Assembly (NCBI GenBank): GCA_018663245.1
Contig: JABJEI010000012.1
Coordinates: forward strand, 9,122-73,121
Origin: a bacterium
GTDB taxonomy: Bacteria; Babelota; Babeliae; Babelales; JABJEI01
Direction of reading: 5' to 3'
Length of the DNA stretch: 64,000 bases
Below, piece after piece: positions 1,630 through 48,422 of the stretch (positions are counted from its first letter, which is position 1; each line of letters begins with the position of its first letter). A program made the translations under genes and the position numbers. The notes below the pieces were generated by a model. That model worked only from the letters and a program-made list of their open reading frames with translations, did not search any database and had not been told where the DNA came from.

Positions 1630-2118
1630 TTGCCCGAAGTCTCAGCGTAGTTCGTAGAACGTAGACGGACCAGTTGCGGCGTAGCTCAAAGAGCGAAGAT
1701 GAATCAAGCTAACTTTCATGCTTTGTTTTTTTACAAGCAAATATCTAAAACTTTTTGCGAGGGGTTGCCCACCCAACCCCTCGCGGACAAAGGTGCCGGG
1801 GGGACCCCTGGACTCCGACGTGCGTAACTTGAAACCTCGAGCTAACGCTCTGCAGTTTCTTCAACAGAGCGCACTCAACTGAGTTCTTTTTTATAGAATT
1901 ACTACTTGCTTAGAAGACAAGTTTTGAATAGGAAAGTTACTATCTATTTTGCCTGGCCTGCAAAGCCTAGAACTCGATAAATGAAGTTATTTTTAAACGA
2001 TTACCGCTGTTGCGACGCCCAAAAATAAACATTACCTTGCCTGCCCGGCCAAGCTTTACGCGAAGCCTGGGTCATCCTCGTGTATACGGGGATCCAGTCT
2101 TTCAATAGCTCATTTAAA
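1630..2118 (+). repeat. Composite intergenic palindromic element (locus R1)
   Basis: 1740-1868 and 2020-2118 match the reverse complement of 36178-36496; 1643-1665 matches 48593-48615; 1933-1968 matches rc of 13558-13591. Confidence 0.85.
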
Positions 2119-22027: not shown

Positions 22028-22030
22028 TTT

Positions 22031-22165
22031 TGCTTCAAACAGTTCTGCTAATAATGAAGACTTTTAGAAACTTTCTTTGTACGCAACTTTCCGATTGCCC
22101 CTGCATGCCCTTCGTAGCTTTAGCAAAGTAGGGTCAGCCCCGGCCTTAAAAGAGGATCCAGGACT
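22031..22165 (+). repeat. Composite palindromic element (locus R3)
   Basis: GCTTCAAACAGTTCTGCTAATAATGAA..TAGAAACTT shared with 48508-48549 and rc 36335-36374; hairpin unit 22098-22133; degenerate GTCAGCCCCGG..GGATCCAG arm. Confidence 0.85.
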
Positions 22166-22372: not shown

Positions 22373-24364
22373 ATGAATATAAAAAACTTACTTTCAAAGC
22401 TCTTACTCGCTGCAACCTTGCTCACAGCCATATCGTCGCAAGCTGCGGTACAGATAGTTGATAATAGCGTAGTAATTGATGGCGTAAAGATCACCTCACA
22501 TAACATCACAGATATACACAACTCTAGTCTTTATGGCACTTTACAAGCATACCCTGCCCATACTAAGCAGCTAATCTCATGTGTCACCAAAGACAATATC
22601 ATAAATATTGACTACTTTATTATCTCAAAAATTATACAAGCAGGCCCAGCTTATACTAAACAGCTCATCTCGTGTATAACCAAAGATAATATCTCAAAAA
22701 TACCTTGGTATGTTATTACGGATATCATCAACAAATACCCTTATTGTGCTAAGCAGCTTGCCTCACACATTAATAAAGATAATTTCAAGTCTATAAGTTT
22801 CTACATTATTGGTAGTATTCTCATATTGGAGCCAGCCTCCGCTAAACGGCTCGCCTCATACATCACCAGAGACAATATTACAGAAATACAAAGCCCTATA
22901 CTCTTAGAGATTGTCAAAGCATACCCAGCTTGCGCTCAACAACTCGCATCATACATTACTAAAGACAACTTCAAGTCTATAAGTGCCCCCATTAAAGGAA
23001 GCACAAATTCAACAATTTGTAGCATTCTCAGATTTAAGCCAGCCTTCGCTAAACAGCTCGCCTCATACATAACCAGAGACAATATCTCAAAAATACCTTG
23101 GTATGTTATTTCGGATATCATCGTAAGATACCCTTATTGTGCTAGAAGGCTCGCCTCGTGCATTACTAAAGACAACATTGCTGAACTAAACAACCAAGTG
23201 ATATCTCATATATATAAATATTTATCGCCAACAGAGCAAAAGATTCTCATTAAAACTATCGAACAGGCCTACCCAAGGCTACATGAACAAGCAACACGTC
23301 TAGAAAACTATATCTTTAGCAACTGTGACAGCCCGCTTTGGGCTCTTAAAAATGCATGCCTGTCTAAAACAGGACAAAGCGAACAACACTACAAAAAGCA
23401 CCCCGGCAACCCACTATTAAATATGCACGGTCAATCATTTAAAAAAATCTGCCTACCAACACCTGTTAGGCTTATGCTGATCAATCTCGTACGTAAAGAA
23501 CGGACTGAACAAAGCAAGGGCCGATACACCCTAATCCATTCACAAAAAAATAGCTGGACGTTGCGCTCCGACATTTTTAAGGGATTGATTGAACTAATTA
23601 TAAAACAACCTATCGGCAACTATCACTTCCTACGATTCAAAGCTGATGATTGTACACACCACACGTTTAGCATGCCACTAAATCAACTCGATCATCCAGA
23701 CGAAGATCATATGATATTTATGAACCATGCTTTGCATGGAAACACAGATCAATCAGGTGAGTCATCTTTTAGCTATTTTGTTCGCAATAAAAACTGCCAA
23801 GATAACCACAGACCCCTGAAGGAACTGTTTGCCAGTTTTGGTATGAGCCATTATTACAAAAAATATAAAACTGGCTTTGAACGGCTAGAAAAAATGACCA
23901 ATGAGAGTAACTATGGATCACTTCTGCTGTTCTCATTCACGCCAAAGTTACTCAAAAAGTCAACTCACGTATCAGCACCAGAAGGCTACAAACGAACAGT
24001 CTATGTCAACTGGCACGAAACTGACAACATCATCACGATTATGGATGCACTTCGCAACAATGCCAATCAAGTAACAGATGATAACCACCTTCAATACTTC
24101 GCCATTCTTAATGACCTAGAAGATGGGTTGCTAAACCCTTGGAACAAGGGCGTGCGAATGTACACCTACTGCCCCGCACAAACAGCAAAATATAGACGAC
24201 TTCTAAGAAAGCTATTTCAAAATATCGCAAAAGATATTGCTGCTAACAATGACGACCTGAGTACCGCACACAAGGCCATACTCAAACTATATCCCTGGAA
24301 GCAACCAAACCGATTTAAAAAAATAATATCACAATCAATACACTATTTGCGCAGCAAGCTTTAA
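22373..24364 (+). CDS. Secreted protein with ~7.5 copies of a 31-aa repeat and a conserved C-terminal domain
   Basis: Signal peptide; repeat ITKDNI.....I..I....P..AKQLAS; C-terminal half homologous to 24552..26189. Confidence 0.85.
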   Translation: MNIKNLLSKLLLAATLLTAISSQAAVQIVDNSVVIDGVKITSHNITDIHNSSLYGTLQAYPAHTKQLISCVTKDNIINIDYFIISKIIQAGPAYTKQLISCITKDNISKIPWYVITDIINKYPYCAKQLASHINKDNFKSISFYIIGSILILEPASAKRLASYITRDNITEIQSPILLEIVKAYPACAQQLASYITKDNFKSISAPIKGSTNSTICSILRFKPAFAKQLASYITRDNISKIPWYVISDIIVRYPYCARRLASCITKDNIAELNNQVISHIYKYLSPTEQKILIKTIEQAYPRLHEQATRLENYIFSNCDSPLWALKNACLSKTGQSEQHYKKHPGNPLLNMHGQSFKKICLPTPVRLMLINLVRKERTEQSKGRYTLIHSQKNSWTLRSDIFKGLIELIIKQPIGNYHFLRFKADDCTHHTFSMPLNQLDHPDEDHMIFMNHALHGNTDQSGESSFSYFVRNKNCQDNHRPLKELFASFGMSHYYKKYKTGFERLEKMTNESNYGSLLLFSFTPKLLKKSTHVSAPEGYKRTVYVNWHETDNIITIMDALRNNANQVTDDNHLQYFAILNDLEDGLLNPWNKGVRMYTYCPAQTAKYRRLLRKLFQNIAKDIAANNDDLSTAHKAILKLYPWKQPNRFKKIISQSIHYLRSKL

Positions 24365-24551
24365 ATAAGCGTCAAACAATACCCATCCAGATTCGTTCTT
24401 CAAATTAAGCCCTGACTCTACCTGTTTTCATACTACCCACGCACAATTACAAATCATTTCAGATAGGCGATCTTCTGCTTTTATTTACTTTTTTATTATT
24501 TGTGATAGTTTAAATAGTAATAACATTGATAGTCCAATTTGGGGGTACTTC

Positions 24552-26189
24552 ATGATTGTTCATAAAAAAATTCTAGCTTATAGCCTGTTTTTCTTAGGTT
24601 TACTGGGTGTCCAACAGACACTTCTTGGAGACTTCTGGGTATCTAATGGCCACTTATTCTCTGACTTTATAAACGTCACATCCGATAATATTTTGGATCT
24701 TACAGATTCATGTGATGATGTTCCCAACGCTGTTTGCGCACAATACCTGACTCGATGTATAACCTCAGACAATATCTCTGATCTATCACGAAGTACATAC
24801 ATAATAGAACATATACTAGAAGTAGATCCTGACTGCGCTCAACAACTTACCCGATGCATAACTCTAGAAAACATCACTGAGATTAATAGCAATATTCTTT
24901 CCGAAATTATCAAACAAGACCCTGATTGCTCCAAACAACTTACCCAATTCATAACCCTAGAAAATATCACTGAAATTAATAGCGATATTGTTTCCGAAAT
25001 ATTAAAAGCTGATCCAACAAGTTCAGCCCAATTTATGGTCAAAAACATTAAAGAGCTGCCAAGCGAAGTAATCATTGCTGCCTGTACGGCCCTAACACCG
25101 ATAGCCAGGACAATTGTCACCAGGGCCATTCAACAGGCATGTCAAGACGCTCCTAAGTGCGAATCTATCATGGAGAACGCCATTCACAACTTCTCTCTCA
25201 ATAAATTAGCTCAGCATTTTGGGTATACACCCTGCTCTGCAACCAACACACCCTACAATCAACTTAGTGAGCAACATTTCAGTAAAAACATACTCAACTC
25301 TAGCGAAAATCAACTGACCGAATCACCTATTCCGCTACCAGTTAAATTGACGTTGATCCAGCTTATACGCAAAGAACGGACTGAACAAAGCAAAGGCCGC
25401 TATACCCTGCTACATGCACAAAAAACTGGCTGGACCCTGCGTGCAGATATTTTTAAACGATTGATTGAACTCGTTTCTGGGCGATCAATAGGTGACTACC
25501 ACTGCCTGCGCTTCCGAGCAGCTGATTGCACACACCACTCATTTGATGTTCCCTGTAAAGACTTTGACTCTCCCGACCAAGACCACCTGATTTTTATGAA
25601 TCATGCCCTGTTCGGCAACTCAGACTATTGGCGCGGCGAATCCTCCCTAGCTTACTTTTTAAACAACGCAAATGTATGTAGTGACTGCAAGCCTCTCAAA
25701 GAGTTGTTTAGCGAGTTCGGTCTTGATAATCATTACGATAAATACAAAGAACGTTTTGATCAGTTAGATACCATGCTTCAAAGCGATTTTGGATCTCTTT
25801 TACTGTTTTCGTTCACACCTGAGCAACTAAACAAATCTGTATACATATCACACCCGTGTGGCTACAAACGAACTGCAATTATAAGTGGATGTGAGACAAA
25901 CTGCGTTAGCGAACTTCTAGACACACTACGAACCGATGCAAATCGGGTACTTGATGACAACCATCTTGTCTACTGCGGAATTCTAAATGACCGAGAAGAT
26001 GGATTGTTGAACCCATGGAATCTTGGCATGCGGACCTACACATTCTGCCCAGCACAAACAGCCGCATATCGACAGCTTATGGATGATACTTTCAATGATA
26101 TTGCGCGTGATATTATTATCAAACAAACCTACATGCACACAGCGCACCAAGCTGCACAACAACTCTACCCGTTTGCATGCTTCGCTTAA
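24552..26189 (+). CDS. Secreted 31-aa-repeat protein, paralog of 22373..24364
   Basis: Repeats ITLENITEINS.I.SEI....P; shared RKERTEQSKGRYTL.H, DCTHH, IFMNHAL.GN, GESS, DGLLNPWN. Confidence 0.85.
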   Translation: MIVHKKILAYSLFFLGLLGVQQTLLGDFWVSNGHLFSDFINVTSDNILDLTDSCDDVPNAVCAQYLTRCITSDNISDLSRSTYIIEHILEVDPDCAQQLTRCITLENITEINSNILSEIIKQDPDCSKQLTQFITLENITEINSDIVSEILKADPTSSAQFMVKNIKELPSEVIIAACTALTPIARTIVTRAIQQACQDAPKCESIMENAIHNFSLNKLAQHFGYTPCSATNTPYNQLSEQHFSKNILNSSENQLTESPIPLPVKLTLIQLIRKERTEQSKGRYTLLHAQKTGWTLRADIFKRLIELVSGRSIGDYHCLRFRAADCTHHSFDVPCKDFDSPDQDHLIFMNHALFGNSDYWRGESSLAYFLNNANVCSDCKPLKELFSEFGLDNHYDKYKERFDQLDTMLQSDFGSLLLFSFTPEQLNKSVYISHPCGYKRTAIISGCETNCVSELLDTLRTDANRVLDDNHLVYCGILNDREDGLLNPWNLGMRTYTFCPAQTAAYRQLMDDTFNDIARDIIIKQTYMHTAHQAAQQLYPFACFA

Positions 26190-40649: not shown

Positions 40650-40852
40650 TTGCCTCTGCATGCCCTTCGTAGCTTTAGCGAAGTAGGGTCATCCCCGGCT
40701 TTGAACGGGGATCCAGTCTTTCAGTAGCTCATTTTATAAATTGGGTTATGTAGACGTTTTGATGATTTTATTTTGTAGATTAACTATGCAATCCTATTTT
40801 ACGGATGTTATTTCTAGTTCTGGATCCCCGTTCAAAGCCGGGGATGACAAGG
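40650..40852. repeat. REPIN-like doublet (locus R5)
   Basis: Perfect inverted arms GTCATCCCCGGCTTTGAACGGGGATCCAG at 40688-40716 and 40820-40848, plus hairpin unit 40653-40688. Confidence 0.9.
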
Positions 40853-48412: not shown

Positions 48413-48422
48413 TAAACAATCC

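What the first reader, a model, noticed from the sequence alone, without database searches (positions are those of the whole stretch)
1740..1880. Multi-hairpin module with compensatory base changes between two copies
Seen: 1740-1868 and rc 36360-36496 share GCGAGGGGTTG-CyCACC-CAACCCCTCGC. The next two stems differ in sequence but keep pairing: CCGGGG..CCCTGG vs CCAAAGG-AAAA-CCTTTGG, and GAAAC..GAGC-TAAC-GCTC..GTTTC vs GCAACC..AAGC-TAAC-GCTT..GGTTGC, both followed by TTCAA. Partial copies of the 3' part lie at 22031-22075 and 48488-48549. Inference: structure rather than sequence is conserved, pointing to an unannotated structured RNA or ssDNA element. Both full copies lie in gaps at gene 3' ends.
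Basis: partly seen in the sequence, partly recalled or inferred. Interest (0 to 1): 0.7.

Follow-up and report, generated by a model that had tools for sequence, protein, structure and literature searches.

The report
Pseudoknotted single-strand DNA repeat arms
This hairpin module is one arm of a mobile, two-armed repeat found between genes in about a third of the Babeliales bacterial genomes searched; its knotted fold is kept by matching base changes, and it likely works as folded single-stranded DNA rather than RNA, through an enzyme not yet identified.

Summary
Observation confirmed. The genome holds 20 copies of the first hairpin plus linker. It also holds in 69 of 77 relatives found by a model blind to it (shuffle maximum 51). 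A second model hits 53 of 151 Babeliales genomes. Close copies face tail-to-tail in 49 of 51 pairs, whatever the gene orientation. One 665-nt pair is absent between the same genes in two congeners. Three signatures point to the opposite strand as ssDNA: GNA triloops, wobble asymmetry, and mirror covariation fitting a purine-motif triplex. These are weak in the window's own copies, which are solo arms. No Rfam match. No partner gene found (Y1, Ssn, TnpB, RT tested). Verdict: a new REP-dimer/MITE-like family with a tertiary fold. The scan noted this unit before, on another piece of this genome and in two other genomes, as probable RNA or foldback; the strand and DNA evidence is new here.

The parts
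1751..1883 (+). Solo arm.
   Evidence: Model matches: R2 72 bits; R3 49.6 bits on the minus strand. No opposite arm nearby in the window at E<=0.01.
1757..1784 (+). P1: 11-bp stem with 6-nt loop (1768-1773)
1770..1795 (+). Pseudoknot: loop bases 1770-1773 pair with 1792-1795 across a 7-nt linker (1785-1791)
   Evidence: 4/4 Watson-Crick here; 19 of 20 genome copies; 69 of 77 relatives
1796..1811 (+). P2 hairpin, directly after the pseudoknot strand
1820..1874 (+). P3: long irregular hairpin with the TTCAA bulge; the apical loop reads G-T-T-A on the opposite strand
36349..36485 (-). Full arm, copy 2 (B-type third domain): P1 36452-36479, pseudoknot 36463-36466 with 36441-36444, P2 36423-36440. 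Solo arm.
   Evidence: R2 80.9 bits; R3 59.7 bits on the plus strand
22030..22084 (+). Partial copy: 3' half of a B-type third domain, right after the ruvA stop
   Evidence: 96% identity to copy 2; neighbour
48488..48549 (+). Partial copy: B-type third domain from its apical hairpin onward, joined to a small palindromic module
   Evidence: 94% identity
13313..13335 (+). Short remnant of the A-type 3' tail
   Evidence: 91% over 23 nt, E 0.011
2071..2097 (+). Ssn-related-motif-like palindrome in the same mosaic gap; a separate repeat family
   Evidence: 53 such matches in the genome
36196..36222 (-). Ssn-related-motif-like palindrome beside copy 2; a separate repeat family

Best explanation
Shown: multi-copy and intergenic; covarying stems plus a 4-bp pseudoknot; arms paired tail-to-tail regardless of gene direction; present or absent between the same genes in congeners. 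Inferred: when the DNA is transiently single-stranded, each strand would fold one arm, read 5' to 3' as P3, P2, pseudoknot strand, linker, P1, so P1 faces the flank. In many relatives the linker would fold back on P1 as a short purine-motif triplex. A nicking enzyme (HUH or GIY-YIG type by analogy) would bind this fold and start copying or recombination. Only correctly folded variants would spread, which would explain compensatory changes among copies in one genome. The window's copies are solo arms in mosaic gaps, with a decayed triplex feature.
For: Pseudoknot: 19 of 20 own copies, five loop types. It holds in 69 of 77 distinct hits of a model with no pseudoknot, nine Watson-Crick types, shuffle mean 41, maximum 51. 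Twelve pattern hits in other phyla all lack the extended stem and a full pseudoknot. Pairs: 49 tail-to-tail, 2 tandem, 0 head-to-head among 185 hits in 10 genomes; 17 convergent, 25 tandem, 11 divergent and 8 undetermined gene contexts. Empty site: a 665-nt gap with a pair in G222; the same genes abut in G223 and overlap in G225, with no model hit. P2 triloops read GNA on the opposite strand in 56 of 70 sequences against 2, or 17 against 2 of 31 genome-by-loop types. Own-genome P3 loops read G..A on that strand in 13 of 16. Triplex-type mirror: 30 of 60 sequences have 4 or more consecutive G.G, A.A or T.A triads; shuffle mean 11.7, maximum 21. Purine-motif triplexes are stated not to form in RNA (PMC4666352). 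GNA/GNNA mini-hairpins are much more stable as DNA (PMC13037366).
Against: No mobilising gene found. Y1_Tnp, TnpB, RT and DUF559 are not found in G000, which is 85.6% complete. No genome-level link to Y1 (20 shared of 53 and 54; p 0.73) and only a weak one to Ssn-like GIY-YIG (30 shared; p 0.09). An arm lies near 1 of 30 Y1 loci and 1 of 30 GIY-YIG loci. No target duplication or sharp end could be defined. In G000 the triplex mirror is 0-3 triads, and only 2 inverted pairs occur among 20 copies. P3 shows no strand bias (12 against 11). A review says evidence on RNA in purine-motif triplexes is mixed (PMC7583470). Shuffles ignore kinship. One clean empty site only.
Confidence: 0.6

Rival explanations
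1. The arm is a structured RNA on the reader's strand, either a small RNA or a 3' trailer that shields mRNAs from exonucleases, and it spreads through an RNA intermediate or by recombination.
For: An 11-bp stem, 2-nt loop, 4-bp stem and A-rich 7-nt linker resemble an RNA H-type pseudoknot (recalled, not from a call). G000 copies lie in 8 convergent gaps of 13 classifiable, against 29 of 115 long gaps. A TATACT-like hexamer precedes several copies.
Against: Pairs occur in divergent and tandem gaps, where one or both arms are antisense to the neighbours. Triloop and wobble signatures favour the other strand. No RT was found in G000. No Rfam match.
Confidence: 0.2
2. The arm is a host-useful ssDNA signal, such as a primase or restart site or a polymerase barrier, retained by selection on each copy and moved only by incidental recombination.
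For: GNA mini-hairpins mark phage G4 and ssiA priming sites and N4 promoters (PMC13037366). The P2 hairpin with its 5' flank occurs alone in 4 viral contigs. Isolated BoxC/PIT triplex elements block DNA polymerase in vitro (PMC4666352).
Against: Absent at E<=0.001 from 98 of 151 genomes of the order, with 1 to 25 or more hits elsewhere. Positions are not conserved among congeners. The same paper reports no in vivo effect for PIT elements.
Confidence: 0.12
3. The arm is a passenger of Ssn-nuclease-driven mosaic gaps: SsnA cuts at neighbouring motifs, and repair copies adjacent sequence, including this module.
For: G000 encodes an SsnA-like GIY-YIG protein flanked by the motif and has 53 motif matches. 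An ssnA-like fragment (read by eye) abuts an arm in L047 and L058. A- and B-type halves recombine freely.
Against: Passive copying does not explain the maintained pseudoknot or the strict tail-to-tail pairing. An arm lies near only 1 of 30 GIY-YIG loci. 23 of 53 arm-bearing genomes gave no hit with this query.
Confidence: 0.08

Closest known systems
REP dimers / REPINs / BIMEs with RAYT or TIRYT transposases (PMC3733652, passages read)
   Same: Intergenic and multi-copy; inverted dimers that are often heterodimers with variable spacers; singletons can be remnants of dimers; mosaic clusters.
   Different: Arms are about 115-145 nt with three helical domains and a covarying pseudoknot, not 20-40-nt hairpins. 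No GTAG or CGTC tag is conserved in the 67-nt core. No Y1 link.
BoxC / PIT / TM intrastrand triplex repeats (PMC4666352; abstract, outline and passages read)
   Same: Class I order (third strand, purine strand, pyrimidine strand) with G.G-C and A/T.A-T triads; repeats tied to unstable loci.
   Different: Here the run is only 4-6 triads, is seen in half of the sequences, covaries in sequence, and is embedded in a pseudoknot. That paper's main text has no mention of pseudoknots.
Ssn-related motifs (NTS/dRS3) and SsnA (PMC11893778; abstract and section 7 read)
   Same: ssDNA hairpin repeats; co-resident in the same gaps; an ssnA-like gene is present in G000.
   Different: Different sequence and a far larger fold; arms do not flank ssn genes (1 of 30).
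Bacterial MITEs (Correia, ERIC, RUP; features recalled, not from a call)
   Same: Non-autonomous, inverted ends, empty and filled sites.
   Different: Arms of a pair often differ in sequence while sharing the fold. No target duplication or DDE transposase link was found; IS elements between arms look like later insertions.
DUF1874, ARRPOF, GEBRO and PAGEV motifs proposed as possible ssDNA (PMC5737381, passages read; supplement unreadable)
   Same: Covarying multi-stem motifs that may be DNA. The paper calls an ssDNA more complex than a hairpin rare.
   Different: No Rfam match to them; not in cassette arrays; no meaningful plasmid match.

Membership tests
REP/REPIN (RAYT-mobilised) | Short 20-40-nt hairpin with GTAG or CGTC tag | tested here: not met
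   Arms are 115-145 nt; no such tag conserved in the 60-sequence core alignment; outer flanks printed show none in common.
REP/REPIN (RAYT-mobilised) | Inverted dimers in intergenic space | tested here: met
   49 of 51 close pairs are inverted.
REP/REPIN (RAYT-mobilised) | Y1 tyrosine transposase flanked by the repeat | tested here: not met
   None in G000; arm near 1 of 30 best Y1 loci and 0 of 5 further ones; no co-occurrence. Not all Y1 loci were checked.
IS200/IS605 ends or omega RNA | Element ends at TCAA; tnpA, tnpB or iscB present; Rfam match | tested here: not met
   Conserved pairing continues past TTCAA; no Y1 or TnpB in G000; the RRXRR search had no positive control; no Rfam hit.
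MITE | Empty and filled orthologous sites | tested here: met
   G222 against G223 and G225; one locus.
MITE | Sharp terminal inverted repeats with target-site duplication | tested here: inconclusive
   Outer ends are fuzzy, with partial duplications; congeners are too distant to map the junction.
Ssn-related motif | SRM consensus, flanking ssn genes | tested here: not met
   Separate repeat in the same gaps; 1 of 30 GIY-YIG loci carries an arm.
Intrastrand purine-motif triplex (class I) | Third strand 5' of the purine arm with G.G-C and A/T.A-T triads | tested here: inconclusive
   Significant in relatives (30 of 60); 0-3 triads in G000 copies.
Intrastrand purine-motif triplex (class I) | Triplex formation shown physically | not testable with these tools
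   Needs DMS N7 protection, NMR or CD.
Rfam RNA families | Match to a covariance model | tested here: not met
   Window at gathering: tRNAs only. One copy at E<=10: four chance hits far below gathering. 20 relatives' loci at E<=0.5: four weak hits, none on the listed arm.

The most novel reading that the evidence does not exclude
Babeliales carry a natural single-stranded-DNA tertiary fold (GNA-capped hairpin, pseudoknot and purine-motif triplex in about 65 nt) that is the recognition end of a mobile element moved by an undescribed ssDNA enzyme. It would be a genomic DNA fold with RNA-like tertiary covariation and a lead to a new programmable-by-structure nuclease or recombinase.
Probability: 0.35. 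Interest if true: 0.8.

Novelty: new variant of a known kind. Interest (0 to 1): 0.6.

Why it matters
Known bacterial ssDNA signals are mostly simple hairpins, and PMC5737381 calls more complex ones rare. A family with order-wide covariation for a pseudoknot, and partly for a triplex, gives a directly testable 65-nt DNA fold. It also gives bait for finding the enzyme, as simpler repeats did for RAYT and Ssn. It warns that covarying 'RNA' motifs in repeats may be DNA on the other strand. And it accounts for part of the non-coding DNA in reduced Babeliales genomes.

Tried and rejected
Sequence-level searches miss the family: 0 of 60 relatives by BLAST, 0 of 260 by pattern, 0 viral contigs with two patterns, no phage match, and only five chance plasmid matches. 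The metagenome scan gave 21 loci, which all appear to be assemblies of this same organism, so they are not independent support.

Outside Babeliales, nothing real was found in those searched. R2: 1 of 151 in the phylum of G265, lacking the pseudoknot; 0 of 101; 0 of 151 Clostridia; 1 weak unexamined hit among 5 genomes. R3: 12 of 151 Clostridia at E<=0.01, which by eye are chance matches in genes; 0 of 151 in the phylum of G268.

Partner gene: no recurring neighbour in 66 and 80 flanking proteins (the 80 were chosen from 303 candidates) or by all-against-all clustering of 3053 frames from 154 loci. Long-spaced pairs hold IS4-, IS110- or IS5-like transposases or ordinary genes (the IS110 and IS5 labels are my reading of the translations).

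Expression: one metatranscriptome holds the organism at low depth, and its contigs do not cover 1681-1960. This is no evidence either way. The second window copy could not be examined.

An IS608-style guide/cleavage pairing around TTCAA did not covary in relatives (inspection). The pseudoknot figures are circular, because 57 of its 60 rows were chosen for a perfect pseudoknot; I rely. The convergent-gap p-value used a mis-tally and is not used; the count is 8 of 13. R-scape was not available. Literature: 'Dependentiae' with 'palindromic repeat' listed 4 unrelated papers; 'Babeliales', 'intergenic', 'repeat' found none; two searches found no description of this fold.

Full report
Setting. The window lies in a 0.90-Mb, 85.6% complete genome, rich in ankyrin genes. 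Named records that carry the element are titled Babeliales or Dependentiae where a taxon is given, and an earlier scan note places this genome in that phylum.

Observation. Every motif quoted is at the stated place. Both copies fold better than shuffles on either strand. A pattern for the first hairpin plus linker finds 20 copies genome-wide, in gaps between crudely called genes; two overlap only short frames inside repeat mosaics. The third domain has two subtypes, which occur with several front-half subtypes. On 16 near-full copies, 96.1% of cells pair and 16 of 38 pairs change on both sides; slid controls give 26-49%.

Pseudoknot. The last four bases of the 6-nt P1 loop are complementary to the four bases just before P2 in 19 of 20 copies, in five versions. 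Model R1 contains no pseudoknot and found matches in 26 of 150 other genomes of the order. Among 77 distinct non-G000 hits, 69 pair at all four positions, 67 purely Watson-Crick, in nine versions; shuffling partners gives a mean of 41 and a maximum of 51. By eye, four of the 8 misses are alignment slips. A pattern scan of GTDB gave 54 loci; the 12 from other phyla all lack the extended stem and a full pseudoknot. Kin are not independent, so these are not p-values.

Distribution. R2, trained on those hits, matches 53 of 151 genomes including G000, in 13 of 20 other families. About half of those genomes supplied training rows, and only 25 candidates per genome were scored. No real match appeared in the samples of other groups. 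Rfam gave nothing.

Two-armed unit. Among 185 hits at E<=1e-5 in 10 genomes, neighbours within 1 kb are tail-to-tail in 49 of 51 cases and never head-to-head; 98 of the 185 are in such pairs. Of 61 pairs with flanks, 17 lie between convergent genes, 25 between tandem genes, 11 between divergent genes, and 8 are undetermined. The pairing therefore belongs to the element and is not one trailer per gene. Partners often differ in sequence, most arms in relatives carry a small extra hairpin outside P1, and outer ends are fuzzy with partial duplications. In G222 a pair fills a 665-nt gap. The same two genes abut in G223 and overlap in G225, G224 has another frame there, and R2 finds nothing in those loci. 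A second test in another genus showed no arm, but the neighbouring gene differed. In G000 most arms are solo: two inverted pairs and one tandem pair among 20 copies, plus one inverted pair in another assembly (L047).

Strand and polymer. P2 gives 7 against 4 and P3 12 against 11. G000's P3 loops read G..A there in 13 of 16. GNA and GNNA mini-hairpins are exceptionally stable as DNA, and a corresponding RNA tetraloop is much less so (PMC13037366, passages). (c) On that strand the linker mirrors the purine arm of P1, G opposite G and A or T opposite A. Runs of 4 or more occur in 30 of 60 sequences with a 2-nt turn, against a shuffle mean of 11.7 and maximum of 21. The flank of P2 shows a weaker version, 2.55 against 2.07 (first pass). 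This is the class I purine-motif arrangement, which PMC4666352 says cannot form in RNA (passages); a review calls the evidence mixed (PMC7583470, passages). Earlier scan titles mentioning a triple helix in Clostridia repeats came before this test. DNA folding energies do not separate the strands.

Enzyme. G000 yields no Y1, TnpB, RT or DUF559 match, but has an SsnA-like GIY-YIG gene beside its own motif (PMC11893778, abstract and section 7). Over the same 151 genomes, arms overlap Y1 in 20 (19 expected) and Ssn-like genes in 30 (25 expected; p 0.09). Arms lie near 1 of 30 loci of each. Flanking genes are unrelated housekeeping or unknown genes. The mobiliser remains inferred.

Mechanism. Shown: copy number, fold conservation, inverted pairing, one gain or loss. 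Inferred: folding as ssDNA on the opposite strand, with each strand of a pair presenting one folded arm whose P1 end faces the flank; recognition by an enzyme in trans; and selection for the fold through its own spread. I put this at 0.6, structured RNA at 0.2, host ssDNA signal at 0.12 and Ssn passenger at 0.08.

Comparison. It works like REP dimers or a MITE (PMC3733652, passages), but fails REP membership on size, tag and transposase. It shares the triad pattern of BoxC/TM repeats but adds a pseudoknot. I found no description in print; the supplement of PMC5737381 could not be read and might bear on this. The scan itself noted the unit on another piece of this genome and in two other genomes. 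Verdict: real; a new variant of a known kind; interest 0.6.

Noticed in passing
L065:1441-1779 (G000 contig C4): Intact 95-aa SsnA-like GIY-YIG gene with inverted Ssn-type motifs beside it; 53 motif matches genome-wide.
   Followed up: partly
L047:2860-3075; L058:370-520: Degraded 3' half of an ssnA-like gene (read by eye) next to an arm in other assemblies of this organism; not in G000's assembly.
   Followed up: partly
L061:2230-2420 against G000 C10: The mosaic gap differs between assemblies of the same organism: small modules are present or absent while the arm is nearly identical.
   Followed up: partly
window 1639-1699, 2045-2071, 22095-22139, 40650-40694, 48422-48595: Small GNA-loop palindromic modules, which elsewhere in the genome interrupt arms, for example C19 and C17.
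   Followed up: no
L388-L391:601-620: The P2 hairpin with its 5' flank occurs alone, without P1, in four viral contigs; L389 and L390 have a second similar hairpin just upstream.
   Followed up: partly
L261-L264: In G136 a near-identical 462-aa IS4-family transposase lies between the two arms at four loci, suggesting that this IS targets the spacer.
   Followed up: partly
L093:1754-2394: A Fic/Doc gene and a small upstream gene, probably its antitoxin, lie between two same-strand arms in G180.
   Followed up: no
G000 C14, C15, C20, C25 (L030, L032, L033, L037, L038): A G-run/C-run hairpin overlapping the upstream gene's stop precedes several arms by 70-180 nt.
   Followed up: no
window 22373-26189 and 29387-33577: Paralogous repeat-protein genes without Pfam match for those scanned.
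   Followed up: no
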